NCBI GenBank assembly: GCA_045612385.1
Contig: JAZKYZ010000039.1
Coordinates: forward strand, 969-64,968
Direction of reading: 5' to 3'
Origin: Eubacteriales bacterium
GTDB taxonomy: Bacteria > Bacillota > Clostridia > Oscillospirales > CAG-272
Length of the DNA stretch: 64,000 nucleotides
Positions 24,356 through 45,616 of the stretch are shown here, in pieces (the first letter of the stretch is position 1; every line of letters starts with the position of its first letter). The notes beneath the pieces were generated by a model that saw only the letters and a program-made list of their open reading frames with translations, was not told where the DNA came from and searched no databases. The position numbers were made by a program, and so were the translations under genes.

Positions 24356-24430
24356 GCCTCCGTAGTAAAGTGGATATTACAAGTCCCTCCTAAGGATTAG
24401 TCGTGGGTTCGATTCCCGCCGGGGGTGCCA
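24356..24430 (+). tRNA. tRNA-Arg(CCU), intact element-borne copy
   Basis: GCCTCCG acceptor, D arm GTAA/TTAC, AGTCC-CTCCTAA-GGATT, GTGGG-TTCGATT-CCCGC, CGGGGGT-G-CCA; 75 nt. Confidence 0.93.
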
Positions 24431-25298: not shown

Positions 25299-26693
25299 TT
25301 AATCGAACAGTTCCTCAATCTTTTCTGCTGCTGTTCTGTCCGAACTTTTTAGGAAGTGGCTGTATATGTCGGTTGTGGTGCTGGTTCGTGCGTGGCCTGC
25401 TCGGCCTGCAACCGTCACCAGTGGGACGCCTGCTGCGATTTGCATCGTGATATTGGTGTGGCGTAGCGAGTGCACCGTTCTGTGCGGCAGTCCCGCCTGA
25501 TCGCAGATCTTATGTACCCAGTATGATATCGTGCCGGGATACATGACCTTTCCGTCCTCCGAGATGAACAGCCTGTTCGTCTCGTGCCATCGGTCACCAA
25601 CGTCGTATTTGTACTGATCGTACCATTCCTTGTACTCCATGAGCACCGCCACCAGCTTATCCGATATACTGATGACGCGTTTACTGCTCTCAGTCTTGGG
25701 ATCCTTTTCTACGAGGCCGACGCCTTTTACCGTTGTGACGGATCGTTCTATGGTGATCGTTCCTTCATCGAGGTCGACATTCGACCATTCCAGCCCGCAG
25801 AGCTCACCGCGCCGAATGCCTGTGAGCAGGAGTATGAGAGCTGCCGTTTTGCATCGCACATCCGGATACGCCAGCGCTGTTGCGTAGAATAGCTTGGCAT
25901 CTTCATCGTTCATGTAGTCGATTTCCTTCGATGGCCGCTTCGGGAAGTCGATGTAATCTGCGGTAGCGTAGTTATCGACGATAAGTCGCTGCTTCTTTGC
26001 GTGCGAGAGTATCGCGCGCAGCGTGCGCTTGATTTTGTGCATGGTCTCGTATGCGTATGGTTGCTTCTTCTTTTTCACATTGAATAGCGCTGTGGTGCGG
26101 CAGCCGAAGTTTTCTGCGATCTTTTCCGCCTGCTCTAGTCGGATGTTATCGCCGCGCAGAGCTGCCAGCAAAGGCCCGCTGTCGTAGTCCAATTTCTGTT
26201 TCAGTTTGCGCTCTCCGCGTCTCGCTGCGTCAACTACTTCTTGGAATTCCGGCTTGGCGCATACCGTAATGATGATTCTTTCGCGCCTGTCGAGCTCGTC
26301 GTAGAATCGCTGTATGATCGTCGGGTTGAGCTCGCGCAGCTTGTAGCCGCCAATGCTGGCGGCTATTTCTGTGATTGCGGATTGGCAGTTGACGTAGTAG
26401 CTGACCGACAGTTCTTCCTTGCGGCGCTCCAGCCACCATTTCATGTAGTCGGCCAGCGTGGTGTCGGGTGAGACACCATCGCCGCCTGCGGCCGTGAGGG
26501 ACATGCGCAGATTGTTTTCGTACTGATCCGCGTACACGATCACCTCACGCTCCATCTGCTTCGGCGTCATTCCCATTTGCGGCTTCCATGTGGTGGAATA
26601 GACATTCATCTTTCCGCTGCCTTTGTCCTTGAGTTTCACCTGTATGCGGTAGGTGGGACCGGATTTCGTCATTCGTTTCGTTATCGTTGCCAT
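25299..26693 (-). CDS. Tyrosine recombinase/integrase
   Basis: TGIRRGELCGL, K (PKT), HSLRHT, GHA, Y (DIYSH); arm-binding N-terminus. Confidence 0.95.
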   Translation of the reverse strand: MATITKRMTKSGPTYRIQVKLKDKGSGKMNVYSTTWKPQMGMTPKQMEREVIVYADQYENNLRMSLTAAGGDGVSPDTTLADYMKWWLERRKEELSVSYYVNCQSAITEIAASIGGYKLRELNPTIIQRFYDELDRRERIIITVCAKPEFQEVVDAARRGERKLKQKLDYDSGPLLAALRGDNIRLEQAEKIAENFGCRTTALFNVKKKKQPYAYETMHKIKRTLRAILSHAKKQRLIVDNYATADYIDFPKRPSKEIDYMNDEDAKLFYATALAYPDVRCKTAALILLLTGIRRGELCGLEWSNVDLDEGTITIERSVTTVKGVGLVEKDPKTESSKRVISISDKLVAVLMEYKEWYDQYKYDVGDRWHETNRLFISEDGKVMYPGTISYWVHKICDQAGLPHRTVHSLRHTNITMQIAAGVPLVTVAGRAGHARTSTTTDIYSHFLKSSDRTAAEKIEELFD

Positions 26694-27199: not shown

Positions 27200-29356
27200 T
27201 TAAAGGGGCTGTGCGGTATCGAGAATTTTATATTTTAACAACATGGTGGTTTCGCTACCTCCACCTTTCGGGCGTTTGCGCACCACGGTCGCAAAGCCAC
27301 AAAGTGACTGCTTGAACTTCGTCATGCTCTCGGCACGATAGCCATTGTCCTCGCACCACCGCTGATATTCCTTATAAACATCTGCTGTGCGCACCTCGGC
27401 GTTATCGTCTGATTCAAGGCACTCATCCACAAAGCGCATGACCTTATCGCTGTCTTTGCGGTAGTCTTCGATTGCGTTTTTCGCCGTCTGCGGAAGCTTG
27501 AGTCCTTCCTTACGGAGCATTGCATATCCTTCCACCAGCCAATTGAGTATAGCGCTCTGACTGTTCGGGTGTGAGAAGAAAACTTTCAGGTTTGTGTCCT
27601 GCTCGCCCTCTCCAAAGTGGCGATCAAATGTAATAACGATAACTCGATCACTGCTAAAGAGCGTCAGATCGCTGATGGCTGGGCGGTAATTGGTGTTGAT
27701 GTACATTTTGAACTGCGGTCTGAAATCGAAGCTGTTTTCATGCAGGAAGCGGGCGTTCAACGTGTCGTTACCGGTCATGCTTTTAACGAGCGCTGCATCA
27801 AGGCGCAAATTGCGATCCGGCTCCGAAATATTGACAAATCGCACGCCTGCGAGACGCGCCACGTCTTCACTTGGCATTTGGCTGCTGCTGTTCTGTTTCA
27901 CGGCGATTGTTTCCGAGCGAGCGGTGCAACCATAGCTACCAAGCACCTTCAGTACGCTTTCGCAAAGTGTTCCTTTACCATTGCGCGTTGTGGCGCCGTA
28001 AAAGATGAAGAAGCACTCGTATCGTGTATCGCCGCTAAGACCATATCCAAGCACCTTCTGCAAGAAGCGAGCTTTTTCCTGATCTTCGCAGGTGATTTCC
28101 TGCACGAAGCGCTCAAAGCGCTCGCAGCGGGCTTCCGGATTGTAGATGACATCGGAGATTTTGGTGAGCTTGTCCGACGCCGTATGTGATGTGAATTTCA
28201 TGGTGTCAAGGTGCAGTGTTCCGTTCTGACAATTGAAAACGTAAGGATCGCTGTCGAATTCTTCCATGCGAATCTTATGTACGCCTTGCGCGTCCTTGAG
28301 TATGGTATCACGCATTTTGCGCGTCTGCCACTTGGCACAGAATTTCATGTACTCCTGACGCCTATTTTCGTCAACGATGGACATACAGTAAATCATCAGG
28401 TTTTTTGCAAGCTCCTTGCAATATTCCATAGTGCAAAGGGAGCCGATATCCTGCTGCCAAATTCCGTCTGCGTAATAGTACCAGCTTTTGCGCGCAGGCA
28501 CATAGCGGACAATGTTCTGATAATAATCCGCAAAGAGCTGTCCCGCGCCGAGCTCCGTCCACGGATAGAGTCTGTTTTCTTCCGGTTTCAGCTTTTGCAA
28601 ACATTCCTGCGGAGCTGCAAACTGTTCCGGCGGTACATATCCGTCCTCATCGGCTATGCGTACGCCGTATTTCTTCGCGTTCTGCCAAATGCTTTCCAAC
28701 TCCGCCTGTTCGAGCGGGGGCACGCATTTGAGCGCCTCCACATCGAATTGCGCTCTCGCTATGCCTGAGTCACCGTGGCGTTTAATGAGCTTGCACGCCT
28801 TAGAGAGAAGCGCAGCGTTGCGTCCTCCCGCCAGAATGAACAGTGAGTCCACCGTGGCTTGTCCTTCGAACATCATCACCTGCGGCGCCGCCACACCGAA
28901 CATAAAGCGTCCTGCATCAAGCGCGTTGGCGTCAAATTCGGGGAATCTTCGTTGGATCTGTTTCTTCAGCTCCACGTACTGCTTGGCATTGTCGATGCGC
29001 TGAATGGGAAAATAAACGTGGAATTTCGGGCGAGCCGCCTTGCCTTTCTTGACCTTCATGTGATTGCGACTGTAACTGACTGCAAACGCTACATCGGGAA
29101 ACGCCAAGCGTACATCTTCCGGTGTTTTCCATGCGGCCGGATCATCGCTGTGATCGTTATCGCAATCCATCGGAATGCAATCAGAGTACAGAAAATTCTC
29201 GTTGCCTCTGCAATCGTTCTTGTACTTGGCGCAAACGTGATCGCGACGCATAGCCTGCTCCAGTGCACGAAGATCGGTGATCGGCGCCTCGTTGGGATAG
29301 TTTTTGTTCTGCGGAACCTCGGTAGTGTTAGCGGTGTAAAGAGTGAATTGCATCAC
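27200..29356 (-). CDS. Primase-helicase, phage/plasmid P4 family (prim-pol N-terminus, PriCT, D5_N, SF3 ATPase)
   Basis: DCDND and KFHVYF prim-pol motifs, GGRNAAL PriCT, FNCQNG.L.L, TRNGKGT Walker A, ARFLHENSFDF.PQFK. Confidence 0.9.
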   Translation of the reverse strand: MMQFTLYTANTTEVPQNKNYPNEAPITDLRALEQAMRRDHVCAKYKNDCRGNENFLYSDCIPMDCDNDHSDDPAAWKTPEDVRLAFPDVAFAVSYSRNHMKVKKGKAARPKFHVYFPIQRIDNAKQYVELKKQIQRRFPEFDANALDAGRFMFGVAAPQVMMFEGQATVDSLFILAGGRNAALLSKACKLIKRHGDSGIARAQFDVEALKCVPPLEQAELESIWQNAKKYGVRIADEDGYVPPEQFAAPQECLQKLKPEENRLYPWTELGAGQLFADYYQNIVRYVPARKSWYYYADGIWQQDIGSLCTMEYCKELAKNLMIYCMSIVDENRRQEYMKFCAKWQTRKMRDTILKDAQGVHKIRMEEFDSDPYVFNCQNGTLHLDTMKFTSHTASDKLTKISDVIYNPEARCERFERFVQEITCEDQEKARFLQKVLGYGLSGDTRYECFFIFYGATTRNGKGTLCESVLKVLGSYGCTARSETIAVKQNSSSQMPSEDVARLAGVRFVNISEPDRNLRLDAALVKSMTGNDTLNARFLHENSFDFRPQFKMYINTNYRPAISDLTLFSSDRVIVITFDRHFGEGEQDTNLKVFFSHPNSQSAILNWLVEGYAMLRKEGLKLPQTAKNAIEDYRKDSDKVMRFVDECLESDDNAEVRTADVYKEYQRWCEDNGYRAESMTKFKQSLCGFATVVRKRPKGGGSETTMLLKYKILDTAQPL

Positions 29357-29568
29357 TGCACACCACCTCCTTCCGTTCCTGCAGGCTGGCCGTTCAGCTC
29401 TTTAGCAGCTGCGTCGATCGCCTGCATTACTTTTTCTTTTTGCTCTCCATCGAGCTCGCGGCGAAGCATGCGCGACAAGCTCTCCGGAGAAATTCCGAGC
29501 TTCGAGGCGATTTGCCAGAAATACACACCGCGCTCGATAGCCTTTATTCGAATGTCTTTGTTTTTCAT
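29353..29568 (-). CDS. Small XRE/Cro-like HTH regulator
   Basis: GVYFWQIASKLGISPESLSRMLRREL; translationally coupled to the primase (ATGA overlap). Confidence 0.8.
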   Translation of the reverse strand: MKNKDIRIKAIERGVYFWQIASKLGISPESLSRMLRRELDGEQKEKVMQAIDAAAKELNGQPAGTEGGGVQ

Positions 29569-29604
29569 AATTCCTCCATTTTGTGTGTTAACAGGTTGTT
29601 ACCA

Positions 29605-29892
29605 TCACTGCGTAAAAAAATATGCGTCGTGGCCACCTCCTGTAGTTTGTTTCTTGGGGCAAAGGACTGTGCGCTGTGCTGAACATCGCTGCTCCGGCTG
29701 CAGTCCGAAACGAGCGCAATTCTGCGCGTATACACGCACCGTATATATTTGATAGGAAGAAGGCCTTCCTGCTCGGCGCCGCATGCCGCGCGCAGATCCA
29801 CCATGCTTTCTCACCGGATTCATACGCGTTTTGAATCCTTGATCTGCCGACCGCTTGAAAGTATGGTTTCTCCTACATACTGCGTTTTGCAT
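29605..29892 (-). CDS. Possible small basic ORF, first gene downstream of the array
   Basis: Strong AGGAGGT RBS before the ATG; no recognisable motif. Confidence 0.35.
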   Translation of the reverse strand: MQNAVCRRNHTFKRSADQGFKTRMNPVRKHGGSARGMRRRAGRPSSYQIYTVRVYAQNCARFGLQPEQRCSAQRTVLCPKKQTTGGGHDAYFFTQ

Positions 29893-29917
29893 TTTGTACC
29901 TCCTGTCCTTTGCTTGT

Positions 29918-31330
29918 ATATTAACTCCTTAACTGGACACCTAATGACCAGTTAAGAAAAGTTTTCGTGTTTTTATATTTTAATTTCTAAATGGCTCACC
30001 TAAAGAACCATTTAAAATTTTTATTTGAACGTATTTTACAGGCTTAACTGTTCACCTAATGAACACCTTTTCAAAATTTTATCGATTAAAGGTGTCACCT
30101 AATGGCATCTTTGAAAAAATATTTTCTATATTGTACCGGTTAACCTGCCAACCTAATTGGCACCTTAAATTCTTTTTTGAATTTTATCTCTCAAACCTGA
30201 CACCTGATGTCATGTTTGAAATATTTCTTGGACTAATTTTAAAACCTAAACTGCCAACCTAATTGGCAGTTATAGAAAATATTTTCTGTTGACGAGGGAA
30301 TTATATCTTCCAAAGTGCAAGATTTTCCTTACACTTTTAAACTGTTTTTCCTGTTCCGCCGTAATCTTAACAATTAAGTAGCTCACCTAATGGGCTACTT
30401 ATTAAAAGTGTTGAAAAATATTTGGTGCGGCGGGGCCGTATTGGCTTTACGAAAGCATCTTATCAATTAACCTGCCCACCTAATGGGCATCTTTTCGAAA
30501 AAATTATAAAATTCAAACTCGACACCTTTTGTCGACTTCGAAAAAATTTTATCTGCCAAATATGCAACCTAATTGCATATTTGAAAAAGTTTTCTGATTT
30601 TTTCACATTATAAATTTCAAAGCGGAAACCTAATTTCCTATTTGACAAAGTTTTTTCGTTTTTCACATTATAATTTTTAATGTGGAAACCTAATTGCCAC
30701 TTTAAAAAGTTTTTTGCTGTTTTTTAGTTCCAAGACATCCTATCACGCCTTCGGTTCACCTAATGAGCCGAAGATTTTTTATATTATAATTTTCAAACAT
30801 TCACTACGGAGATGTATGTTTGCTTTGTTTTTCTGAATTATATCGCCCCTTGTGTTCACCTAATGAACACAAGAGGAATTTCTTTAATGTTTTTGTACTG
30901 ACAGTTTACGACGGATTGGTGTCACCTAATGGCACCAATCCAAATATTTTTTTACCACTGCGCACATTTTATCGAATAACCTGGACACCTAATGTCCACC
31001 TTTTTCATTTTCTTTCAAATTTTACAACGAAAGTACGACACCTAATGTCGTACTTAATCATCTTTTTCAATGATTTTATACTGTAAGTGGGACACCTAAT
31101 GTCCTACTTGATCATTTCGCAAAAATTTTATCAGGCTTGTGGACATCTAATGAACACAAGCGCAAACTTCTTTCTTTTTTCGAATTATACCGCGCCTTGT
31201 GCCAACCTAATTGGCACAAGAAAAAATCTTTTGAAGGAATTTTACATCGTAAAGTACCAGCCTAATTGGTACTTTGAAAAAATCCTTGTAAAAATCATAT
31301 CGTGCAAAGTATGAGGTTTTATCACACTTT
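29918..31330. repeat. Array of 22 variable-stem hairpins with a conserved CCTAA loop, plus 3 loop-variant units
   Basis: Loops start at 29940, 29999, 30055, 30098, 30152, 30203, 30258, 30386, 30479, 30525, 30568, 30629, 30689, 30759, 30859, 30925, 30988, 31041, 31095, 31146, 31206, 31261; no credible ORF. Confidence 0.92.
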
Positions 31331-31358
31331 AAAAATAAAAATCATCTTTTTTATAATG

Positions 31359-31396
31359 AAAAACGCCATCGCACCCGTTGCCGGATACGATGGCGC
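31359..31396 (-). terminator. Intrinsic terminator between the accessory genes and the array
   Basis: Minus strand cgccatcgtatccg-gcaa-cgggtgcgatggcg-ttttt. Confidence 0.8.
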
Positions 31397-31399
31397 CGA

Positions 31400-31696
31400 T
31401 TATTCGGTTATTGGTTCCTGTTCGACCTTGCTGCTGATCAATGACTCGGCGGTGAGCCGCAGCCCCAGCTTAAAGCCATGCGTAAAGATCGTTACTTCAT
31501 TGATGCTGTTCATCTCCATCCAGCAGTCCTTGATCTTTTCGAATGTTTCCTTCTGCGCTTCGGTCAGCGTTCCAAGCAGCTCAGCCTCATTCCGCGCCAG
31601 CAGTCCTACCAGATTGGCGTATTCGCTGCCTGCGCGGACGCTGCGATTGTACGGCATAATATTCCCGTAGTACAGCTCCTCGATTGTTGTTCTCAT
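31400..31696 (-). CDS. DUF6809-like small protein
   Basis: MRTTIEELYYGNI.P...F.HGFKLG pattern; AAGGAGG RBS. Confidence 0.7.
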   Translation of the reverse strand: MRTTIEELYYGNIMPYNRSVRAGSEYANLVGLLARNEAELLGTLTEAQKETFEKIKDCWMEMNSINEVTIFTHGFKLGLRLTAESLISSKVEQEPITE

Positions 31697-31830
31697 ATCT
31701 GCACCTCCTTTGGCGGGGACAATCATATCAGAACGACGCGCGGAAGTCCATACAGGATTCTCACTGTTAGCGAACATGTAACAAAGCCCCGCGAGGGAAT
31801 TACTCCGCCGCAGGGCTATCGCTTCCACAT

Positions 31831-32058
31831 TTATATATTCTCGCTGTGGAGGATAATCTCCAGCGCGACGCTGGCATCTTCATCTACGGGCTCAATGTCC
31901 CAGCCGCGATCATAGCTGCATACGACCTCGCCGCCGCGCTTGATCATGAGCTTGCTGATCCTGCCGCCATTGATGCCAAACTTACTGCCTGTGTCCCACT
32001 GCTTAATCCAGTAGTGGTATCCGCGATGATTGATGAGGATGCATCCTTCTTTCCACAT
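31831..32058 (-). CDS. Small mobile-element protein (DUF7678-like)
   Basis: MWKEG...YWIK....S.FGI.GGRISKL.......YDRGWD. Confidence 0.65.
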   Translation of the reverse strand: MWKEGCILINHRGYHYWIKQWDTGSKFGINGGRISKLMIKRGGEVVCSYDRGWDIEPVDEDASVALEIILHSENI

Positions 32059-32070
32059 GTCGCCGCCTCC

Positions 32071-32334
32071 TTACCACTCGAATCCTGCGTCTGCTGCGAT
32101 GCCCTTGAACGCCTCCAGCGCCACTGCGATGCTGCTGTAGTCGCGGATGAACTCCGGATCGTCGTTGCCGTTCTTTCTCACCGATGCGAGCACCGCGCTG
32201 CCGCATGCCATCATGCGGATCTCCATCGTGCTACCTGCCTTTGTCCATACGCGGTGGTATACCGTGTTCTGTGTATCTGAGGTATGTCCTGCTACCGTGA
32301 ATCCGTTCTTTTCGATCATTGCTGTGTTTTTCAT
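32071..32334 (-). CDS. Hypothetical protein
   Basis: AGGAGG RBS; TGGACT-16-TATACT promoter upstream. Confidence 0.65.
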   Translation of the reverse strand: MKNTAMIEKNGFTVAGHTSDTQNTVYHRVWTKAGSTMEIRMMACGSAVLASVRKNGNDDPEFIRDYSSIAVALEAFKGIAADAGFEW

Positions 32335-32555
32335 GCCATTGGCCTCCTGTGTTTTTGGTAGGACAAGTATACCAGAAAGGGGGTAAAAGTCCAGCCAAAA
32401 AAGCAAGAATTAGCAGAAGGAACATAATTAAATGAAATAATACGATTGCGTCGTATTTTAGCGTTTGCGATTAGACAGCAAAACAGCCCCACGATCCATA
32501 TCGGGGGGCTGAAACACCTGCATAAAAACTATATTTTAGGGATTATATACGATGA

Positions 32556-33494
32556 TTAGTCTTTTCCAATTGGTTCTAATTCTGTTTTTACGGTGCTATC
32601 ATATTCTGCATCTGTCAACTCTGACTTCAATATGCTATCATTGAGCATTCTTAAAAATGCCGCAGCTTGTTTTTGGTTGTTGATTTGAATTTTTCCATCG
32701 GATATTACAAAAATGCCTTTGTATCGCGGCAACGTGCCAAGTTTATCCAATAGCACAGCTTTCTTCATTCTTAATACAGGCGAGTTCTTTGCTTTATATA
32801 ACTTTTTGGCGTTCGTAAGAGCGCTTTTGTCAGCCAACACTAAAAACTTATCAATACCAGAAACAATTTCCATTTCCGATATGTACTGTATTGTTTTTTG
32901 GGCTTCTCCACGTATGAATGTTTCGAAAAGGAACACCCTTTGCATAAGTTCAATTTTTGTCGTTATGATTGAAGTTCCAATGATCAAGCAATCTATTTTA
33001 CGCTCTATTTTCAAAATATCATCCTTCAACGATGTATAAACTCCACCTGAAATAATCGCGTAGATGTTTTTGCTTTTTTTGATCAATTGTGGATAGTTGA
33101 CTTGCTGATATATCCAGAAATATGTATCGTTTACATTTATTCTAAATGCAAAACCTATCAAAAAGTCAAGATCACTTTCGCTGTATTTATCCGACACTGC
33201 GCCGTAACTGTTTAAAAAATCGAACGGGGAATACTCGGCGGTTTGCGGAATTTCATAAAAAACTTTTCTGTTATCATCGATATTTTCTGCTCTATCCAAT
33301 TTTGCGGAATCGCAGAGAAACTGATTCTCTAATACGGTTTTCAACATACTAGAAACTTTTGAATTTAAAGCATCATCCAAAATGAATTTTTTTAAAGAAA
33401 ACGCGTCATCCTTTTTTATGACCGCAAAAGCGCTCACGCCATATTCCGTATGGATAATTCGTTTTATATGTTCTTTCATTTCTTGAGTGTTCAT
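32556..33494 (-). CDS. kwaB: Kiwa anti-phage protein KwaB (DUF4868-like)
   Basis: 312 aa; ILKIERKIDCLI, FLRMLNDSILKSELT..EYD C-terminal pattern; coupled to a KwaA-like gene. Confidence 0.75.
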   Translation of the reverse strand: MNTQEMKEHIKRIIHTEYGVSAFAVIKKDDAFSLKKFILDDALNSKVSSMLKTVLENQFLCDSAKLDRAENIDDNRKVFYEIPQTAEYSPFDFLNSYGAVSDKYSESDLDFLIGFAFRINVNDTYFWIYQQVNYPQLIKKSKNIYAIISGGVYTSLKDDILKIERKIDCLIIGTSIITTKIELMQRVFLFETFIRGEAQKTIQYISEMEIVSGIDKFLVLADKSALTNAKKLYKAKNSPVLRMKKAVLLDKLGTLPRYKGIFVISDGKIQINNQKQAAAFLRMLNDSILKSELTDAEYDSTVKTELEPIGKD

Positions 33495-34072
33495 TTTTTC
33501 ATTCCTTTCACGAACAGAACATCTTGGGTGATATCCTTATATTCGACATTGTGCTTATCATCTATTTCCCCGTGTGATATAGCCATGTATGTTCCAGTGC
33601 CTTTTTCCTCGCTGTCAATAAATACTATTTCCGTAACATGATACCCTAATATCGATAGAACCGGGTTTGCGTAAAACAATCTCGTTTTTGCCATTAACAA
33701 CCAAGTAAATATCAGAATGGAGAAAAATGTTATAACGCCTTGCCACGTATTGATATTATCGATTAACAACGGGAGAATGAGCGTAAAAAAGAAATTCAAA
33801 CTGGCATCTTCTTTCTTTTCAACTGTTGCAACAGAATACCCTTGTTTTCTATCTGCGTATTTGAATGCATTGAAACTGATTATGAAGATTATTGCTAAAA
33901 TGCACCATATTGCGCAGACAAGCATAGTACAAAGCAAAGGCAAATTAGCAGAAATAAATTCTTTTATAGAGAGCCCTACCCCAGCCTCGTCTTTGGTTAC
34001 AAAACACCAATTTTTAATTATTGTTAGAAAAGCGATGGGACTTAGCGATTGTATCATTAATTGTTTTTTCAC
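33491..34072 (-). CDS. kwaA: Kiwa anti-phage membrane protein KwaA
   Basis: Multi-TM 193 aa with SLSP, LNFFFTLILPL and FYANPVLSILGY. Confidence 0.75.
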   Translation of the reverse strand: MKKQLMIQSLSPIAFLTIIKNWCFVTKDEAGVGLSIKEFISANLPLLCTMLVCAIWCILAIIFIISFNAFKYADRKQGYSVATVEKKEDASLNFFFTLILPLLIDNINTWQGVITFFSILIFTWLLMAKTRLFYANPVLSILGYHVTEIVFIDSEEKGTGTYMAISHGEIDDKHNVEYKDITQDVLFVKGMKK

Positions 34073-34996: not shown

Positions 34997-36271
34997 TTAT
35001 TCTCCTAACGCCTTGTCTAGCTTCATTATTTGAAGGAAAATACCTTCCAAAAGTCTTACCGGAATACTGTTACCCGCCATTCGAATAAGCTTGTCTCGTG
35101 GGAACAAACAACTATTCTTACGAACTTCAGGGTTGTTTTTAATAACGTTATCGTAATCTTCGTCCGTGAATCCCATGAAAAGGAAACACTCGCGTGGTGT
35201 TAAATACCTAAATGTCCCGCGTCCGGCGATACCCGACTCAAAATAGAGGTTGCCCGAATTGGGATTGCGATCTTGCTTGGTAGTGATTGTTCGAATAACG
35301 TCGATATCCGGATTAATAGTGCCGTTCTCCAAAACAATCTGAGGGTTTTCATTCCATATCTCGCGGCGAGATACGGTGTCGTTGGGGGTACACGCTACGG
35401 CCTCGTCGAACAATCTCCGATTGCCATAGTCGATGCGCAACAATTCACTAACCGAGGTTTTGCGATAATATTTCGATTGTTGGTATTCTTTGACAACGGT
35501 TGTCTCCGTCTTGGATTTCCAATACGAAATCACCTTTTGTTTTAATACCTCATCATCTCCAACGTACACGCTGACCATTAACAAACGCGGTCTGTTTTGG
35601 GGCAGTCCGAAAGCGCTTGCATTCAACTGAAAGTATTTGCTAACATAGCCTAGCGCTTCCAAGTCGGAAATCCAGGTTTCAAAATTACCCTTGTGTCTAT
35701 CGGAGAGTAGCGTAGGTACATTCTCCAAAAGCAAGTATCTCGGCATGGATTTTCCTGCCTCGTTCATTTCCTGCAATATGCGTCCTACCTGCCATAACAA
35801 ACTGGAGCGGCTGCCAGAGTCCTTGTCAATACCTTTGGTATATCCGTGGAACGCACCAACGTTTGAAAGGTCCTGACAAGGGAATGAATATGTAAGAATA
35901 TCAACATCCTCTGGCATGCTGCTCCCGTTCAAGGAGCTTACATCTACGAAATTATTGTTTCTTCTTACAGCAGCGTAAACGCGGCGCAATACTTCAACAG
36001 AATATGTTTTCAGTACTTTATAATCCATTTTCTCTTTGCCGTTGTTGCTAAGCACGAAGGGCTCCAAGAAAGAGAGCAGCTGTTCTTTTGTCATTGCCTT
36101 TACATCATCGGGGAGTTCCGGCGACGCATGAATCGCGTCATAAGCAATAAACGCATGTATATCCCATTCGCATATACCCAGCGTGTTAACTGTACAGCCG
36201 AGGTTTTTAAGGGCTTTGGCTTGGCTGCCTATACCACTAAACAGCTCAACTAAATTGTAAGTATGATTCAT
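34997..36271 (-). CDS. DNA (cytosine-5)-methyltransferase
   Basis: Motif I ELFSGIG, IV FPCQ, VI ENV, VIII QNRPR, IX RYLTPREC, X AGNSI. Confidence 0.95.
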   Translation of the reverse strand: MNHTYNLVELFSGIGSQAKALKNLGCTVNTLGICEWDIHAFIAYDAIHASPELPDDVKAMTKEQLLSFLEPFVLSNNGKEKMDYKVLKTYSVEVLRRVYAAVRRNNNFVDVSSLNGSSMPEDVDILTYSFPCQDLSNVGAFHGYTKGIDKDSGSRSSLLWQVGRILQEMNEAGKSMPRYLLLENVPTLLSDRHKGNFETWISDLEALGYVSKYFQLNASAFGLPQNRPRLLMVSVYVGDDEVLKQKVISYWKSKTETTVVKEYQQSKYYRKTSVSELLRIDYGNRRLFDEAVACTPNDTVSRREIWNENPQIVLENGTINPDIDVIRTITTKQDRNPNSGNLYFESGIAGRGTFRYLTPRECFLFMGFTDEDYDNVIKNNPEVRKNSCLFPRDKLIRMAGNSIPVRLLEGIFLQIMKLDKALGE

Positions 36272-38535
36272 GAGATTTTTATACCCTCCGCTTCAAGCTT
36301 GCTCTCCACCTCAAGCGCAAGCTTGATGGATGCCATTATCTTCGATGGCACCTTACCGGAACTTGAAGCAGGTACGTTACCTGTTTGTGCCATGGTTATA
36401 AGCTGCTTAATTGCAGTCTGTTCTTGATACGATACCAATGATTTCTGAAGCCCTATCGTCATGACCTTCGTCCAGTAGTCAGCTCCTTTTGCAACGGCGT
36501 TCATTACAAACATCAAATCATTGGTTTCTTTTTGCTCGGATTTTGCTGCGCTTTCCTGCTGGCGGATGATTGATTCAGGCATCAACTCGTCCAAGAACTC
36601 TGCTGACAGCGAATACGGAACACTGTCTCTAAATTCTTCCCATGTAGAAAGGCGCTTGCAGTATTCGGTAACAATTACACCGTGGCTATCGCAGATGAAG
36701 TCGTTAGCGATTTTGGTGACACGTTCCACCTCGCGCATAAATGCAGGCGATACCGACTGCTTCTGCCATATTCTGCCCCAGTCGAGTGTGTATCCCGAGG
36801 GAATAGAAGACAATATTTTTGCTATGGTATACGGGACAATATTGCCCTTATAACCACCAGTCTTATACCAAAATCCTGTGGGCTTTTTGGCACTGTCTTT
36901 GTGGGACTCCAAATAATCATCAACCGCTTGGAAAATGATAGCTGCGCAGATGCATTTCTTGAAATAAAATTCGTTGAAATCAGCTCTGCTCGATTTATAC
37001 ATGTTGCCAATAGCAATTGCAAATTCCTTGAACACCCAGTTTTTACCCTTAGATACAATGTGTGGTTTGCAATCGAGCGCGGTCATATAAACCGCAAGCT
37101 TTTCTTTTGTAATAAGTTGTTTCTTGGGAAATTTCGATGCGAATCGCTTGGCTTCCTCTCCGCCCAGCTTGAACTGTTCCTGTTCATAACGTTTTCTGGA
37201 ACGCTCATAGTACCATCCGGTGGGAATTGCGTACAATGCCGGCGGTGCCAAATGTTTCTTTGACATCTTTTCCATCCAAATATGGAAGGGGTCGTTAGAG
37301 AATAGGTCTGCAGCAGTAACTTTATTTTGGCTGTTCGCGTACTTCGCAATAGCTTGTACCATCTGATCATAGAATCGAATGCCATCTTCGTCCTCGGATT
37401 CGCGATCTTCGATGACGGTGATTTTCATCGGAACGAATATACCATCCAAATTCATATTTGCAGATTTTTTTAAGATTGCTTCAGCCAAAGATGCTGTTGT
37501 TTGGCCGCCGTTAATGATCTGCAAATCAACAATCTGAGTAATGTAGAGTTCACCATCTATGCGCTCAACTGTGACGTCTGCCGCCGTGGTTGCTATGCCG
37601 TTATTGTAAGTGAAAAATTTAGTAGGATCCGTGTTAATGGTCCGTCTAATGCCGTTATTAACATTATCCTTTTTCTGTGATACTCCTAAAAAGGCACGAA
37701 CGTTTCCTTCCAAGACCTTGCTGCCATGCTCGATATAAATACTTGCCAACAATCTTCCGGGAATAATTGCAATGTACGCCTCGTAACCGAGATCATCACC
37801 AATATTACCCTTAATACAAGGAATACCTTCATATCCCAATTCAGGAAAATCGTTTTTAATATCAATTACGATAGGCTCGTTGCTATTGGAATTTTCCATT
37901 TCAAAGAAACGTTCCAAGTGCCACAAACTAATTTCCAACGGTTTACCATTAAAATCAGCCTTTTTAATTTTCTTGGTGGTTTTAGTGGTTTTGGCTTTGC
38001 CTTTTTTCTTTCGGATAGTTGTCTCAAGCAGATTCTTATCCAAAAGTCTTGTGCTTAACTCTTTATTGGTGATGATATAAAATTTGATTTTCAGAAGCAT
38101 GTCCGGATCGTCGCCAACTGCATTGATGCGACGGCGAATCAAACGCGCCACCTTCAATATGTCGTCAGAAGCGTCGAAACAATCCTCCATGTTTCCGTTG
38201 CATACTTCATCGAGGAAGTTATATAAGCGCCAATAGAGATCGTCTACACGTGTTTCTGTTAGATTTTCAGTGTTAAAAGTATCCTGAAAATCGCTGATGA
38301 AAAGGATAAGGCTGCGATCCACTTCGTCAAAGCTATATCCGTCGATTCTCATTAAACTTTTGTTTTTTCTTGCCTTGTCACCCATTCCAACACGGACGGG
38401 ATCCTCGATCTCACTGAAATCCGAAAGAATATCGAGCGTTCTATTTAAGAATTCATCTTCGGTCTCGGCGCCGCTGATCGCGGATTCATCGCGCAAAGAT
38501 TGCAAAAAATCGCGTTTATATTCCTGATAATCCAT
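36268..38535 (-). CDS. AIPR family protein
   Basis: LEGNVRAFL, FFTYNNGI, QIINGGQTTASL, NSQNKV. Confidence 0.92.
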   Translation of the reverse strand: MDYQEYKRDFLQSLRDESAISGAETEDEFLNRTLDILSDFSEIEDPVRVGMGDKARKNKSLMRIDGYSFDEVDRSLILFISDFQDTFNTENLTETRVDDLYWRLYNFLDEVCNGNMEDCFDASDDILKVARLIRRRINAVGDDPDMLLKIKFYIITNKELSTRLLDKNLLETTIRKKKGKAKTTKTTKKIKKADFNGKPLEISLWHLERFFEMENSNSNEPIVIDIKNDFPELGYEGIPCIKGNIGDDLGYEAYIAIIPGRLLASIYIEHGSKVLEGNVRAFLGVSQKKDNVNNGIRRTINTDPTKFFTYNNGIATTAADVTVERIDGELYITQIVDLQIINGGQTTASLAEAILKKSANMNLDGIFVPMKITVIEDRESEDEDGIRFYDQMVQAIAKYANSQNKVTAADLFSNDPFHIWMEKMSKKHLAPPALYAIPTGWYYERSRKRYEQEQFKLGGEEAKRFASKFPKKQLITKEKLAVYMTALDCKPHIVSKGKNWVFKEFAIAIGNMYKSSRADFNEFYFKKCICAAIIFQAVDDYLESHKDSAKKPTGFWYKTGGYKGNIVPYTIAKILSSIPSGYTLDWGRIWQKQSVSPAFMREVERVTKIANDFICDSHGVIVTEYCKRLSTWEEFRDSVPYSLSAEFLDELMPESIIRQQESAAKSEQKETNDLMFVMNAVAKGADYWTKVMTIGLQKSLVSYQEQTAIKQLITMAQTGNVPASSSGKVPSKIMASIKLALEVESKLEAEGIKIS

Positions 38536-38545
38536 TTTGCGCCTC

Positions 38546-39463
38546 CTATTCTTTTATTTCGAATGCTCCTATTTCAACCAAGGAGATTTCGTACATTGCT
38601 TTTCTAATTGCCGTGGGAAGATCTCGCGGTGTCAGCTTGGGGAATTCTGCACAAACACGATATCTCTTAAAGCTGTTGATTTCATATACGAAATCATCGT
38701 AATAATTGTTATATTCGTATCCTTGCAATGCGACTTTCGCCATAAACGCGTCGCGTTCTTCACCGTCTTGAAACATGTTACGCGTTTCCAAAATCAACTT
38801 GTTCAAAGTGATTCCGTTATAGGCTGTGCTCATTTTCTCAAGACTGTAAACCGCAAGTTCGCCCTCGTTGTCACTGTCGAGCTGCTCCAACGAGGAGATT
38901 TTAACACTTTGCGCGCCTCGACTGATCGACTTTGCTTCAATCCATGTATCTCCAAACGAGAAGTCCTTGTGCGTAAGCTCTTGCCCACTCCAGCTATCTA
39001 AAGCCTCTACCAGTCCTATGCGAGAAGCTAAATGTCCGCGCATTACAAGAATTTCTCCGATAAGTCCCATGATTTCAGGCTCCGTCAGGAAATTATTTTT
39101 AGATGAAACAAACATTTTCTTCCACTGAAAGAAGCGGCTAACAATAGCGGTGTATCCTTCGCTTTTATCTTTGACGCTTCTCGTCTGCTCGATTAAGTCG
39201 TCACAGAATTTATAAAATAGTCCGCTGATATCATCATCGCAAAGAGAGAATCGAATAGTATTGTAATCGGCGCGTTTATATTGGTTTACCTCAATCGCAG
39301 ATGTGCCAGTGACCTTACGCGGCGTAAACGACGCACGAAGCTCTATGGCCTTTCTACCTTTATCGTCGAGTCCAATATGTAACTCCAAAATATGATCAGT
39401 ATCTACGCGCGAAAAATAATTGGCATTTGTAAATTTTGCAAAAAGTTCGCGAGAGTCGATCAT
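38546..39463 (-). CDS. PD-(D/E)XK motif protein (DUF4420-like)
   Basis: GLIGEI...W.G....KDF......EAKS...VKISSLEQL. Confidence 0.85.
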   Translation of the reverse strand: MIDSRELFAKFTNANYFSRVDTDHILELHIGLDDKGRKAIELRASFTPRKVTGTSAIEVNQYKRADYNTIRFSLCDDDISGLFYKFCDDLIEQTRSVKDKSEGYTAIVSRFFQWKKMFVSSKNNFLTEPEIMGLIGEILVMRGHLASRIGLVEALDSWSGQELTHKDFSFGDTWIEAKSISRGAQSVKISSLEQLDSDNEGELAVYSLEKMSTAYNGITLNKLILETRNMFQDGEERDAFMAKVALQGYEYNNYYDDFVYEINSFKRYRVCAEFPKLTPRDLPTAIRKAMYEISLVEIGAFEIKE

Positions 39464-42294: not shown

Positions 42295-42295
42295 A

Positions 42296-43777
42296 TCATT
42301 CCTCCAACAGTTTAACTTTTAACTCCGGGAAGTTGTTGAAAGGTTCGGAATTGAAAAGTCTTTCTATAATGGATGCTTTGTCACTGTCTCCCATAGCTGC
42401 GGCCATCGAAATTAGAATGCGAGCCTTCGCTTCAATTTCAGCAATTCTTTCAGTATCAACGGTGTCTGCAATACGGTTCTGTGATTTATCAATGTAAATT
42501 TGCTGATATGGCAGCGCTCCTTCAATTTCTTCAAGTACCATATCGATGCGCGCCCATGTTTCGTCATCTACCTTAGAACGAATCAAATCGAAAATTTGTG
42601 CATCTCGATTAATAACAAACGTGTGCTGATCCTCACGTGTCTTGATCGGCAGCCATATATAATCGATTTTGTCATCCTCCGTATCTACACGGCCACGGAA
42701 CTTTTGCGCTTTTATTGCAATATCCATCGCCTCATCAACTGCTCTCGTCAAACGTTTGCGAATCGATGCAGGGATTCGTGCGCTCTGCTTTTTAATATCT
42801 ATCCCCCAAATGTCATCGAGGGAGTTGGGGATGTCAACACGGATGCGTGCATATTTGGTAAGCTCATCACGGTGTCTTCCGAACCAGTTACCCCAGACGA
42901 TCAATCGTTCGTTGCGGTACACGTAGAAACCTTGCTTGGAGCGGTAGTTTTCTATGCCGCCCGACAGACGCTTGTCTTCCGGAGACAAGTCTTTTTGGAA
43001 AGGCAAAACATACGGCTGGACGACAACCATTCTCTCGATGCCTTCAGAATCTTCAATCGGAATTTCGATTCTTTTTCTAACATTGGTTTTAATGTGATTT
43101 TCAAGGAACGGATCCATCCCCTTGAGCGCAAAGTTATTGATCTTTATATTGATTTTCGCTGCTCCGGCTTTGTTCAAAAATCTATGAAAAATTAAAGAGA
43201 GGTATTCGGCAGTTTCGTCTTGATAACGATTGAGTTCGGCGTATATGTTGCCGGATGATTTTTCGATCAAATCGAAATTCTCCCAGACAACAATCGTGCC
43301 ACTGTCCAAATTATCAAGCCACGAAATTTGTTTGATAGACGAAATTTCCAGCGGGGTGCACTCGATCATATACCAATCTTTTTTATCGAGGATTACATCC
43401 AAGTCCCATATATAAGCGGATACCTCACCATTTTTCTTGCTGGCAACAGTAAGTCTGCGGCACTGAGAGAGGGAGGCAGCCTTCAATCCCAAACCAAAGC
43501 GACCGAGATCGTCCTCTGCTCTGTGGCCACGTTTTTGCTCGCTGCCGTACTTCATGGCGTCAAACAATTCTTCGCGAGTCATACCATAGCCATCATCACA
43601 AATAGCAACATAGCAATCAAGCGGATCAATAGGAAAACGAAGCCATATATTATGCGCGGACGCACTAATACTATTGTCGATAATATCTGCAATAGCGCTT
43701 TCGAAAGAATATCCCATGGCTCGCATGGATGTCATCAATATATCAGCTGTCGGTTTATTTTCTCTCAAATTTTCCAT
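42296..43777 (-). CDS. MORC/MutL-type GHKL ATPase
   Basis: DIIDNSISA, DDGYGM, GRFGLGLKAAS, GFYVYRNERLI. Confidence 0.92.
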   Translation of the reverse strand: MENLRENKPTADILMTSMRAMGYSFESAIADIIDNSISASAHNIWLRFPIDPLDCYVAICDDGYGMTREELFDAMKYGSEQKRGHRAEDDLGRFGLGLKAASLSQCRRLTVASKKNGEVSAYIWDLDVILDKKDWYMIECTPLEISSIKQISWLDNLDSGTIVVWENFDLIEKSSGNIYAELNRYQDETAEYLSLIFHRFLNKAGAAKINIKINNFALKGMDPFLENHIKTNVRKRIEIPIEDSEGIERMVVVQPYVLPFQKDLSPEDKRLSGGIENYRSKQGFYVYRNERLIVWGNWFGRHRDELTKYARIRVDIPNSLDDIWGIDIKKQSARIPASIRKRLTRAVDEAMDIAIKAQKFRGRVDTEDDKIDYIWLPIKTREDQHTFVINRDAQIFDLIRSKVDDETWARIDMVLEEIEGALPYQQIYIDKSQNRIADTVDTERIAEIEAKARILISMAAAMGDSDKASIIERLFNSEPFNNFPELKVKLLEE

Positions 43778-45429: not shown

Positions 45430-45571
45430 ACGCCGTTTTTTCACGAGAAAAAAGCTAAAAATTTTAGAAAAGATAGCGAATTTTCTGCATTTTATGGTAT
45501 AATTATAGCGAAGATACGCAAGACACGTATTTTAAGCATGTCCTGCACGCAAGGTACGAATTCCGACTGTG

Positions 45572-45616
45572 CCTCCTAAGGGTTAGTTATGGGTTCGATT
45601 CCCGTTGCGGGTGCCA
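45572..45616 (+). pseudogene. 3' half of the host tRNA-Arg(CCU) (attR)
   Basis: CCTCCTAA-GGGTT-AGTT-ATGGG-TTCGATT-CCCGT-TGCGGGT-G-CCA, with no 5' half upstream. Confidence 0.9.

What the first reader, a model, noticed from the sequence alone, without database searches (positions are those of the whole stretch)
29918..31330. 1.4-kb array of 22 hairpins with different stems and a conserved CCTAA loop
Seen in sequence: an inverted repeat centred on CCTAA recurs mostly every 43-70 bp (19 exact copies, plus CCTGA, CCTTT and TCTAA). The 6-12-bp stems differ between units yet stay complementary, e.g. CAAATATGCAA-CCTAA-TTGCATATTTG, AAGTACGACA-CCTAA-TGTCGTACTT, CTTGTGCCAA-CCTAA-TTGGCACAAG, GGATTGGTGTCA-CCTAA-TGGCACCAATCC. 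AT-rich linkers separate the units. Three more units with other loops (~30322, ~30805, ~31316) keep the rhythm. Inference: structure and loop are under selection but stem sequence is not. This differs from CRISPR, iterons and REPs, where the repeats are near-identical. The array lies in a satellite-like element between a terminator and the HTH-primase-xis-int operon. I know no described element with this architecture; it is the best candidate for a new system here.
Basis: partly seen in the sequence, partly recalled or inferred. Interest (0 to 1): 0.95.

Follow-up and report, generated by a model that had tools for sequence, protein, structure and literature searches.

The report
Tandem array of 25 promoter-operator units
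The 1.4-kb hairpin array is real, but each unit looks like a small promoter with a dyad operator, copied about 25 times in front of the replication and integration genes of a mobile defence island whose own regulator gene has decayed.

Summary
19 inverted repeats are centred on exact CCTAA; three have one-letter loop variants and three have other loops (25 units in my count). The arms differ yet stay complementary: 80% Watson-Crick paired against 46% in shuffles.

On the gene-sense (-) strand, TTAGG is followed after exactly 16 nt by a sigma-70-type -10 hexamer TAnnnT in 20 of 21 units. All units point at a Cro-like HTH / primase-helicase / Xis / integrase operon. That operon belongs to a 21-kb island integrated in tRNA-Arg.

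Related elements carry one such unit (L126, L449) or three to five (L134). There it sits just upstream of a small HTH_11/DeoR regulator that heads the operon. In the window that regulator is a decayed pseudogene.

My best reading is a tandemly amplified promoter-operator module. Its likely working is many -35-less promoters acting together, plus a high-capacity sink for a dyad-binding regulator; this part is inferred.

It is not an Rfam family, CRISPR, REP or classical iteron array. Why the arms co-vary is unresolved. A replication origin and cruciform or hairpin recognition remain open. No RNA data were available.

The parts
29918..31330 (-). whole array: 25 promoter-like units (21 TTAGG-type, 4 with other loops), all in the orientation of the downstream operon
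31294..31330 (-). unit 1 (odd loop): dyad 31306-31330, -10-like TATGAT 31294-31299; a similar dyad occurs in L134
31239..31277 (-). unit: loop 31261-31265 (CCTAA on +), -10 TAAAAT 31239-31244
31184..31222 (-). unit: loop 31206-31210, -10 TATAAT 31184-31189; arms differ from the L123 orthologue by a compensatory pair
31124..31162 (-). unit: loop TCTAA 31146-31150, -10 TAAAAT one base closer (15 nt); two mismatches in the arms
31073..31111 (-). unit: loop 31095-31099, -10 TAAAAT
31019..31057 (-). unit: loop 31041-31045, -10 TAAAAT
30966..31004 (-). unit: loop 30988-30992, -10 TAAAAT
30903..30941 (-). unit: loop 30925-30929, -10 TAAACT
30837..30875 (-). unit: loop 30859-30863, -10 TATAAT
30783..30822 (-). 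unit (odd loop): dyad 30794-30822, -10 TATAAT 30783-30788
30737..30775 (-). unit: loop 30759-30763, -10 TAGGAT
30667..30705 (-). unit: loop 30689-30693, -10 TATAAT
30607..30645 (-). unit: loop 30629-30633, -10 TATAAT
30546..30584 (-). unit: loop 30568-30572, -10 TAAAAT
30503..30541 (-). unit: loop CCTTT 30525-30529 (AAAGG in sense; the L123 orthologue has TTAGG), -10 TATAAT 30503-30508
30457..30495 (-). unit: loop 30479-30483, -10 TAAGAT
30364..30402 (-). unit: loop 30386-30390, -10 TAAGAT
30300..30337 (-). unit (odd loop): dyad 30312-30337, -10 TATAAT 30300-30305
30236..30274 (-). unit: loop 30258-30262, -10 TAAAAT
30181..30219 (-). unit: loop CCTGA 30203-30207, -10 TAAAAT
30130..30168 (-). 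unit: loop 30152-30156, -10 TACAAT
30076..30114 (-). unit: loop 30098-30102, -10 TAAAAT
30033..30071 (-). unit: loop 30055-30059, -10 TAAAAT
29977..30015 (-). unit: loop 29999-30003, -10 TAAAAT
29918..29956 (-). last unit: loop 29940-29944, -10 TAATAT 29918-29923, 26 nt before the ATG of the decayed regulator ORF
31362..31397 (-). intrinsic-terminator-like hairpin (16 pairs + T run) ending the upstream DUF6809 gene; upstream boundary of the array
29605..29892 (-). 95-aa ORF = decayed homologue of the HTH_11/DeoR regulator that follows the unit in L126/L134; probably a pseudogene
29353..29568 (-). 71-aa lambda-repressor/Cro/Xre-like four-helix HTH; first intact gene after the array and conserved in all related elements
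27200..29356 (-). primase-helicase (D5_N, Pox_D5, DUF5906), 718 aa
26769..27140 (-). 123-aa protein with a weak HTH_17 (excisionase-type) match, E 0.015
25299..26693 (-). tyrosine integrase, 464 aa
24383..24430 (+). 3' part of tRNA-Arg(CCT); left copy of the 48-nt direct repeat that bounds the island
45569..45616 (+). right copy (85% identical) of the tRNA-Arg 3' repeat; the island spans about 21.2 kb

Best explanation
The array is a tandem amplification of one regulatory module: a promoter with a dyad-symmetric operator over its -35 position. Read on the - strand, each unit has four parts. First comes an A/T-rich tract (consensus AAAAAnTTTTT). Then comes a 10-12-bp inverted repeat whose centre is (C/A)A-TTAGG-T(G/T). 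Then 4-6 nt follow, and then a sigma-70-type -10 hexamer TAnnnT. All 25 units point at the operon of decayed HTH_11 regulator, Cro-like HTH, primase-helicase, Xis-like protein and integrase. This operon belongs to a 21-kb island integrated in tRNA-Arg that carries Kiwa and other defence genes. In relatives the module is single or few-copy and directly precedes an intact small HTH_11/DeoR regulator gene, the usual layout of an autoregulated promoter/operator. In the window's lineage the regulator gene decayed and the module multiplied to between 8 and 25 copies. Shown here: the anatomy, the fixed geometry, the covariation, the homology to single-copy modules, the decay of the regulator, and rapid gain, loss and shuffling of units. 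Inferred: the units fire as promoters lacking a canonical -35, so their outputs add up. Also inferred: the dyads bind a dimeric HTH protein, either the Cro-like 71-aa protein or an HTH_11 regulator supplied in trans, so that the array acts as a high-capacity operator bank that sets the threshold for replication and excision. The co-varying arms are not explained by base-specific protein readout. They need either selection for extrusion as hairpin or cruciform, or templated quasi-palindrome correction.
For: (1) TTAGG is followed after exactly 16 nt by TAnnnT in 20 of 21 window units, and after 15 nt in the other. In the alignment, T, A and T at positions 1, 2 and 6 are present in 21, 21 and 21 of 21 window units, and in 52, 54 and 53 of 54 units overall. 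The pattern TTAGG-N16-TANNAT is found 18 times against 0.33 expected. The four odd-loop units also carry TATAAT or TATGAT 4-6 nt after their dyad. (2) All units share the orientation of the operon, and the last -10 lies 26 nt before the first ATG. (3) L126 (primase 65% identical) has one TTAGG unit (model E 1.9e-8), then an HTH_11/DeoR gene, the Cro-like gene and the primase. L134 (56%) has three model hits at E<1e-5 plus weaker units, then the same genes. L449 has one TTAGG unit before an HTH_11 gene. (4) Six of six small ORFs tested downstream of single model hits are HTH_11/DeoR (108-128 aa, Pfam E 4e-5 to 2.5e-12). In five of them the start lies 26-35 nt after the -10. (5) The 95-aa ORF matches the L126 regulator collinearly (19 of 54 identical, E 1e-5). 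It has no Pfam hit. In L365 it carries 1-nt and 2-nt indels, and its substitutions are not codon-biased (12/17/17 by codon position). (6) Units are under constraint and turn over. Between window and L123 the loop differs at 6.3% and the -10 at 8.3% of sites, against 13% in linkers and 16% in arms; this alignment is partly non-orthologous. It also shows compensatory arm changes. Contigs of 4 runs from 3 studies join units in many different ways. (7) No clear strand bias of G.T-type mismatches (window 7 against 1, L123 7 against 3, L134 2 against 2; not independent). DNA folding energies are equal, -216.4 against -220.5 kcal/mol.
Against: No transcript data exist: no RNA run holds the stretch, so no start site is shown. 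The position where -35 should be holds CATTAG/ATTAGG, not TTGACA. An extended -10 TG is present in only 4 of 21 window units, so promoter strength without a factor is uncertain. The arms vary between units even in L134, where the regulator is intact. This is the opposite of a normal operator, which has conserved arms and a free centre, as in the CCGGACA-N5-TGTCCGG singles. No HTH_11 small regulator was found in the window's genome: a protein query gave nothing at E<=1, and the PF08279 hits are other proteins. The proposed binder is therefore unproven. The link between regulator decay and amplification rests on one lineage (window, L123, L365). The array is AT-rich and next to the primase gene, which also fits an origin. 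The model hits in other genomes are partly selected by the model's own structure and -10 columns.
Confidence: 0.55

Rival explanations
1. Replication origin. The repeated CATTAGGTG boxes would be binding sites for the primase-helicase, whose C-terminal Pox_D5 region is a winged-helix-like DNA binder. The A/T-rich linkers would be unwinding elements. The -10-like hexamers would give transcriptional activation or R-loop priming. This could coexist with promoter function.
For: The array is directly upstream of the primase-helicase operon. It has the lowest GC of the neighbourhood, 0.33. It carries many copies of a short conserved box. The model finds it nowhere else in the genome. From recall: P4 ori/crr and SaPI ori are iteron clusters near the replication gene, and the T7, T4 and lactococcal c2 origins use promoters.
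Against: The same module occurs singly before HTH_11 genes in 5 genomes where this primase was not found with this query. L126 has only one box. 100 loci with more distant primases have none. Spacing is irregular at 43-128 bp. The strict T-A-x-x-x-T hexamer at a fixed distance is a sigma-factor signature rather than an iteron feature (recall).
Confidence: 0.15
2. Structure-read element. The dyads would extrude as cruciforms or fold in single-stranded DNA. The CCTAA/TTAGG loop would be read by a protein such as a hairpin-dependent polymerase or primase, or a structure-specific regulator. Stems could then drift as long as they pair.
For: Complementarity is kept at positions that are not conserved in sequence; for example the third pair from the loop is A-T 14, C-G 14 and T-A 13 of 50. 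Orthologous units differ by compensatory changes. Loop length and closing pairs are fixed. A/T-rich flanks favour extrusion (recalled from work on C-type cruciform extrusion). N4 virion-polymerase promoters are a precedent for hairpin promoters (recall).
Against: No protein of a hairpin-reading family (HUH nuclease, N4-type polymerase) was seen among the island's genes that I scanned. The -10 hexamer suggests ordinary holoenzyme. The single-copy relatives look like plain operators with conserved arms. Templated quasi-palindrome correction could keep arms complementary without selection (recall).
Confidence: 0.12
3. Long structured RNA, a CsrB-like protein sponge or multi-hairpin leader. It would be transcribed from either strand and present about 22 identical pentaloops.
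For: The architecture of many hairpins, variable stems and one conserved loop resembles sponge RNAs (recall). Units 2 to 25 would be transcribed by read-through from upstream units if those units are promoters.
Against: No Rfam match near threshold; the best of 7 is 23.3 bits against a gathering score of 80. There is no excess of G.U-compatible mismatches on one strand beyond 7 against 1, and these counts are not independent. Single-copy homologues place the dyad upstream of the -10, so it is probably untranscribed there. The loop is not a GGA motif.
Confidence: 0.05
4. Selectively neutral minisatellite. Replication slippage would have multiplied a promoter/operator after its regulator died, and the copies would simply not yet have decayed.
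For: Array composition is highly polymorphic between samples and relatives. The regulator gene is decayed. Tandem Repeats Finder detects only two short stretches of recent duplication, 2.5-2.6 copies at 77-81% identity.
Against: Linkers have diverged so far that most units are only 60-80% alike. Yet T, A and T of the -10 are kept in 21 of 21 window units, the loop in 19 of 21, and pairing stands at 80%. Arrays persist in at least three to four diverged lineages: window/L123/L365, L134, L404 and L451.
Confidence: 0.08

Closest known systems
Autoregulated promoter/operator of a small HTH regulator (lambda-type operators; C-box operators of restriction-modification controller proteins)
   Same: A dyad overlaps the -35 region with a -10 hexamer downstream, and the module sits directly before the regulator's own gene. 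This is seen in L126, L134, L449, L423, L425, L427, L428 and L454.
   Different: Here there are about 25 tandem copies. The centre of the dyad is conserved and the arms vary with compensation. The adjacent regulator gene is decayed. Binding is untested.
Phage T4 middle promoters (MotA box near -30 plus a sigma-70 -10); recalled, not tested
   Same: A sigma-70-type -10 combined with a non-sigma box occupying the -35 position. CATTAGGTG spans about -35 to -27 by my numbering.
   Different: No MotA/AsiA-like proteins were identified. The box is embedded in a dyad. There are 25 copies in tandem.
Phage N4 virion RNA polymerase hairpin promoters; recalled
   Same: A promoter defined by a small hairpin, with sequence-specific loop and stem-proximal bases, extruded from supercoiled DNA.
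   Different: N4 hairpins are 5-7 bp with 3-nt loops and have no -10 hexamer. No such polymerase is present here.
Iteron-type origins next to primase/helicase genes (P4 ori/crr, SaPI ori, plasmid iterons); recalled
   Same: A repeated short box in an AT-rich non-coding stretch adjacent to the replication gene.
   Different: Iterons are near-identical direct repeats with regular short spacing. Here only 9 bp plus the -10 are conserved, spacing is 43-128 bp, and every unit is promoter-like.
CsrB/RsmZ-type sponge RNAs; recalled
   Same: Many hairpins with different stems and one conserved loop motif.
   Different: No GGA loop, no Rfam hit, no evidence of an RNA product, and the single-copy relatives place the dyad upstream of the -10.

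Membership tests
sigma-70-type promoter | -10 hexamer with T1, A2, T6 at a fixed place in every copy | tested here: met
   T, A and T are present in 21, 21 and 21 of 21 window units, and in 52, 54 and 53 of 54 units overall. The hexamer lies exactly 16 nt after TTAGG in 20 of 21 units.
sigma-70-type promoter | -35 hexamer TTGACA-like, 16-18 bp upstream of the -10 | tested here: not met
   That position holds CATTAG/ATTAGG. The consensus scan found no - strand promoter inside the array.
sigma-70-type promoter | lies a short distance upstream of a gene with a ribosome-binding site | tested here: met
   Single-copy relatives have 26-35 nt from the -10 to the start codon in 5 of 6. In the window the last unit lies 26 nt before the ATG at 29892.
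sigma-70-type promoter | mapped transcription start | not testable with these tools
   No RNA run is listed for the stretch.
dyad operator of a dimeric HTH regulator | inverted repeat overlapping the promoter | tested here: met
dyad operator of a dimeric HTH regulator | half-site sequence conserved among the copies bound by one protein | tested here: not met
   The arms vary. Only G at -5 (35 of 50), C/A at -2 and A at -1 are common.
dyad operator of a dimeric HTH regulator | cognate regulator gene adjacent | tested here: inconclusive
   The gene is intact in L126, L134 and L449 and decayed in the window. A Cro-like HTH gene follows it.
iteron replication origin | near-identical direct repeats of about 17-22 bp at regular spacing | tested here: not met
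   Unit identity is 60-81% and spacing is 43-128 bp.
iteron replication origin | bound by the element's initiator and supports replication | not testable with these tools
   Needs an experiment.
Rfam RNA families | score at or above the family's gathering threshold | tested here: not met
   7 weak matches, the best 23.3 bits against 80.
CRISPR array | near-identical repeats separated by unique spacers | tested here: not met
   The repeated part is only a loop plus a -10, and the arms differ.
REP/BIME/MITE-type dispersed palindromes | many copies dispersed over the genome | tested here: not met
   All 21 model hits in the 1.89-Mb genome lie inside the array. The pattern count is 16 in the array and 1 elsewhere.

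The most novel reading that the evidence does not exclude
The dyads are read as structure. Flanked by A/T tracts, they would extrude as cruciforms in the supercoiled, excised island and present the TTAGG/CCTAA loop at the -35 position. The 25 promoters would then form a supercoil- or excision-sensing switch, in effect a bacterial-holoenzyme counterpart of N4 hairpin promoters. A second version is that the array is a library of operator variants. A satellite-like island that has lost its own regulator would use it to respond to, or soak up, the HTH regulators of several different co-resident phages.
Probability: 0.15. Interest if true: 0.85.

Novelty: new variant of a known kind. Interest (0 to 1): 0.55.

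Why it matters
If the units fire, I know of no larger natural tandem promoter array in a bacterial mobile element; this is from recall, and my two literature searches found no precedent. It would also be a natural case of cis-regulatory amplification going with loss of the regulator. Two questions become directly testable. One is how integrative, satellite-like defence islands set the threshold for excision and replication. The other is whether complementarity of a promoter-embedded dyad can be maintained independently of base-specific protein readout, by cruciform selection or by templated quasi-palindrome correction. The 54 natural variants collected here are a ready-made mutational series for that test. 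There is a practical point too. Assemblies break at this array: contigs carrying the adjacent 71-aa gene are mostly under 3 kb. Such islands are therefore probably under-assembled in metagenomes.

Tried and rejected
Rfam, E-value mode, 29000-32500: nothing near threshold.

DNA BLAST of the array: one copy in its own genome. No array in 60 relatives, only two chance-level 28-41-nt hits. No match in 50,697 phage records.

Pattern CACCTAATG...CACCTAATG in viral contigs: the 119 loci were chance or coding repeats, collagen-like or similar.

The two-unit pattern in viral contigs: 21 loci, none with 3 or more stemmed TTAGG by my scan. Two of these were real arrays, L365 and L404.

A generic hairpin-cluster scan of 160 primase loci flagged L140/L139. 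These are unrelated GC-rich hairpin clusters.

RNA evidence: no RNA holder listed. Contigs of X1-X4 were laid and show only DNA polymorphism.

Strand test by G.T against A.C mismatches and by folding both strands as DNA: no usable asymmetry.

Extended -10 TG: 4 of 21 window units, so it is not a general feature.

I looked for a trans-acting HTH_11 regulator in the window's genome. None was found with the L134 protein. The PF08279 hits are Xre-like membrane proteins or larger proteins.

Arm-type integrase sites, pac sites and centromeres were considered and dropped. The array lies 5.5 kb or more from either island end, and no par or terminase genes were seen among the scanned ORFs.

A sigma-H-like reading (AGG ... 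GAAT geometry, recalled consensus) was dropped because the G of GAAT is rare.

The tRNA-Arg upstream region gave no usable host -35 example.

Homologues of the 71-aa protein carry no informative names. Its fold matches lambda-repressor/Xre-type HTH only weakly: Foldseek E 0.3-1.5, probability up to 0.98, TM about 0.58.

Two literature searches returned nothing relevant. I saw listings and abstract starts only and read no paper, so 'no precedent found' rests on these two searches and on recall. Supplements were not consulted.

Full report
WHAT IS THERE. The stretch 29918-31330 is an ORF-poor, AT-rich region (GC 0.33 against 0.40-0.52 around it). Upstream of it lies the terminator of a DUF6809 gene (31362-31397, - strand). 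Downstream lies a - strand operon: a 95-aa ORF (29605-29892), a 71-aa protein (29353-29568), a 718-aa D5_N/Pox_D5 primase-helicase (27200-29356), a 123-aa protein with a weak HTH_17 match, and a tyrosine integrase (25299-26693).

20 of the window's 36 CCTAA lie in the array, and 19 of them sit at the centre of an inverted repeat. In addition there are the loop variants CCTGA, CCTTT and TCTAA, and three dyads with other loops.

THE OVERLOOKED FEATURE. Read on the - strand, which is the sense strand of the operon, every unit has the same layout: an A/T-rich tract (consensus AAAAAnTTTTT), the left arm, (C/A)A-TTAGG-T(G/T), the right arm, 4-6 nt, then TAnnnT. The hexamer starts exactly 16 nt after TTAGG in 20 of 21 TTAGG-type units and 15 nt after it in the TCTAA unit. 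Its T1, A2 and T6 are invariant in the 21 window units. The hexamers are TAAAAT in 11 units, TATAAT in 4, TAAGAT in 2, and TAAACT, TAGGAT, TACAAT and TAATAT once each.

The four odd-loop units carry TATAAT or TATGAT at the same place. The pattern TTAGG-N16-TANNAT occurs 18 times in the window, all in the array on the - strand, against 0.33 +/- 0.57 expected. In the whole 1.89-Mb genome the stricter pattern occurs 16 times in the array and once elsewhere.

T-A-x-x-x-T is the signature of a sigma-70-family -10 element, and the A5-N-T5 tract lies where UP elements lie; both points are established knowledge that I recall. A TTGACA-like -35 is absent. Its place is taken by CATTAGGTG, the centre of the dyad. 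An extended -10 TG is present in only 4 of 21 units.

THE DYADS CO-VARY. On an almost gap-free alignment of 54 units from five loci (A1), 83.0% of stem cells are standard pairs. Column shuffles gave 53.2% (0 of 500 reach the observed value) and sliding the partner gave 32-43%. 11 of 12 pairs show changes on both sides, and the covariation score is 0.66 against 0.17. These rows include orthologues, so I repeated the test on the 21 window units alone: 79.7% Watson-Crick paired against 46.0 +/- 2.5%, with a maximum of 56.6% in 1000 shuffles.

Orthologous units of the window and L123 differ by compensatory changes, for example ccaa/ttgg against ctaa/ttag and ccaa/ttgg against ccca/tggg. The arm consensus is only weak, roughly tGGnCA...TGnCCa.

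RELATIVES. By DNA similarity the array is unique in its own genome and was not found in 60 relatives or in phage records. Through the primase I fetched 160 related loci.

L123 (primase 96% identical) has a collinear but not identical array of 19 TTAGG units. L365, a 1.2-kb metagenome contig, has 8 units before the same leader. L134 (primase 56%) has three strong and two or three weak units. L126 (65%) has exactly one unit. L404 and L451/L452 carry short arrays of two to five TTAGG/ATAGG units; L451 places them before an xis-int pair.

100 loci with primases about 30-34% identical have no unit. The three large arrays are mosaics of one another. Contigs from four public runs (three studies) join units in many different ways, with skips of 65-615 nt. 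The array therefore gains, loses and shuffles units quickly.

WHAT THE UNIT IS. In L126 and L134 the unit nearest the genes is followed by a 113-aa HTH_11/HTH_DeoR regulator. These two regulators are 63% identical to each other (Pfam). After the regulator come the homologue of the 71-aa protein and the primase.

A covariance model of the unit (R1) finds 21 places in the window's genome, all in the array. It finds single hits in 6 of 150 other genomes sampled from the order and in 9 of 150 from the genus. I tested six small ORFs downstream of such single hits, and all six are HTH_11/DeoR regulators of 108-128 aa. In five of them the start lies 26-35 nt after the -10. None of the five genomes I checked holds this primase, at least with this query.

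In the order-level singles the dyad is AAACCGGACA-N5-TGTCCGGTTT, with conserved arms and a free centre. That is the ordinary look of an operator over the -35 of an autoregulated gene. There the dyad lies upstream of the -10, so it is probably not transcribed from that promoter. The array unit is therefore a member of a common promoter/operator design in this bacterial order. It differs in that the centre (TTAGG) is fixed and the arms drift.

THE REGULATOR IS DEAD HERE. The window's 95-aa ORF aligns collinearly with the N-terminal half of the L126 regulator (19 of 54 identical, E 1e-5), including the IYTVR motif. It has lost the hydrophobic pattern and has no Pfam hit. Its L365 copy carries 1-nt and 2-nt indels, and substitutions fall evenly on the codon positions (12/17/17). 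For comparison, the primases of the window and L126 are 65% identical. I found no other small HTH_11 regulator in the genome, which is 97.5% complete.

The first intact gene after the array encodes a 71-aa four-helix protein (pLDDT 81). Its best fold matches are lambda-repressor/434/SinR/C-protein-type HTH domains, and they are weak: E 0.3-1.5, probability up to 0.98. It is conserved in all related elements and is the obvious remaining candidate for a TTAGG-box or dyad binder. That is inference.

CONTEXT. The tRNA-Arg(CCT) gene at 24356-24430 shares a 48-nt direct repeat of its 3' part with 45569-45616 (85% identical). Together they bound a 21.2-kb island. Besides the core operon and the array, the island carries DUF6809, DUF7678, KwaB with a KwaA-sized partner, a Dcm methylase, AIPR, DUF4420, Z1, an HATPase_c_3 protein and a Fic protein. 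It has no virion genes, so it is an integrative, satellite-like defence island.

HOW IT MOST LIKELY WORKS. Several things are shown: each unit has promoter anatomy aimed at the operon, the module is homologous to single-copy autoregulated promoter/operators, and in this lineage the regulator decayed while the module multiplied.

The rest is inferred. The units would be promoters without a canonical -35 whose outputs add. The dyads would bind a dimeric HTH protein, so that about 25 sites form an operator bank. Such a bank either demands a high repressor dose for silence or soaks up a regulator made by a co-resident element. Either way it would set the threshold for expressing the primase, Xis and integrase genes.

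Base-specific readout by one protein does not explain why non-conserved arm positions stay complementary. Either extrusion as hairpin or cruciform is selected, or quasi-palindrome template switching keeps the arms matched without selection (recalled mechanism). I could not separate these. There is no clear G.U bias and both strands fold equally well. This argues against an RNA-only function, but only weakly.

RIVALS. The rivals are an origin of replication, a structure-read element, a sponge RNA, and a neutral minisatellite. Evidence and refutation tests for each are given in their own sections. Origin function and promoter function are not exclusive.

COMPARISON AND NOVELTY. This is not a member of any Rfam family, CRISPR, REP or classical iteron class; the defining features were tested and not met. 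It works most like an autoregulated promoter/operator. Its geometry recalls T4 middle promoters, where a box replaces the -35, and N4 hairpin promoters; both are recalled analogies, not memberships.

The new elements are the scale of the tandem amplification, the inverted conservation pattern (centre fixed, arms co-varying), and the coincidence with regulator decay. That coincidence rests on one lineage and so is weak. I rate it a new variant of a known kind. It is of moderate-to-good interest, well below 'new system', but it is real and unusual and has clear experiments.

LIMITS. No expression data exist. The model hits in other genomes are partly shaped by the model's own structure and -10 columns.

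Noticed in passing
window 24383-45616: A 21.2-kb island integrated in tRNA-Arg(CCT) and bounded by a 48-nt direct repeat (85% identical). It carries Kiwa (KwaB 32556-33494 with a 193-aa partner at 33491-34072), a Dcm methylase (34997-36271) with AIPR, DUF4420, Z1 and HATPase_c_3 genes (36268-43777), and a Fic protein (43825-44919). It has no virion genes.
   Followed up: partly
L126 4900-5265: Between the DUF6809-like gene and the single TTAGG unit lies a palindrome. After it come a canonical TTGACA-N17-TATAAT promoter and a non-coding stretch of about 250 nt that ends in a strong terminator. This is a candidate small RNA or leader of the related element.
   Followed up: no
L448, L450, L456, L457 (hits at 1501-1554 of each locus): Four genomes of the genus share a nearly identical unit, gtgttcaAAAGGtgaacag followed by TATAAT, after a conserved upstream block. 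No obvious ORF follows it. In L448 a terminator-like hairpin lies about 100 nt downstream. This may be a small-RNA promoter.
   Followed up: no
L442, L443, L445 (G078, G120, G167): The CCGGACA-N5-TGTCCGG operator and its HTH_11 regulator head a conserved operon. Judged by eye from the translations, it holds a 357-aa protein, a P-loop kinase-like protein, an acyl-carrier-like 80-aa protein, a 340-aa protein, a protein of about 450 aa and a protein of about 185 aa. Small membrane (holin-like) ORFs follow. The function is unknown.
   Followed up: no
L140 4240-5950 and L139: Dense clusters of GC-rich hairpins flanked by short tandem repeats (for example gttaagt and gagccttga runs) lie upstream of a more distant primase. 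They are unrelated to the TTAGG units.
   Followed up: no
window 29569-29604 and 29605-29892: Within the decayed regulator ORF and the spacer before the 71-aa gene, several blocks are almost invariant between the window, L123 and L365. One example is the 60-70 nt just upstream of the 71-aa gene's ribosome-binding site. This conservation could mark a leader RNA element or a protein site.
   Followed up: partly
proteins P0002-P0023: Nearly all contigs that carry the 71-aa gene in public assemblies are 0.6-2.6 kb long. This suggests that short-read assemblies routinely break at the neighbouring array.
   Followed up: no
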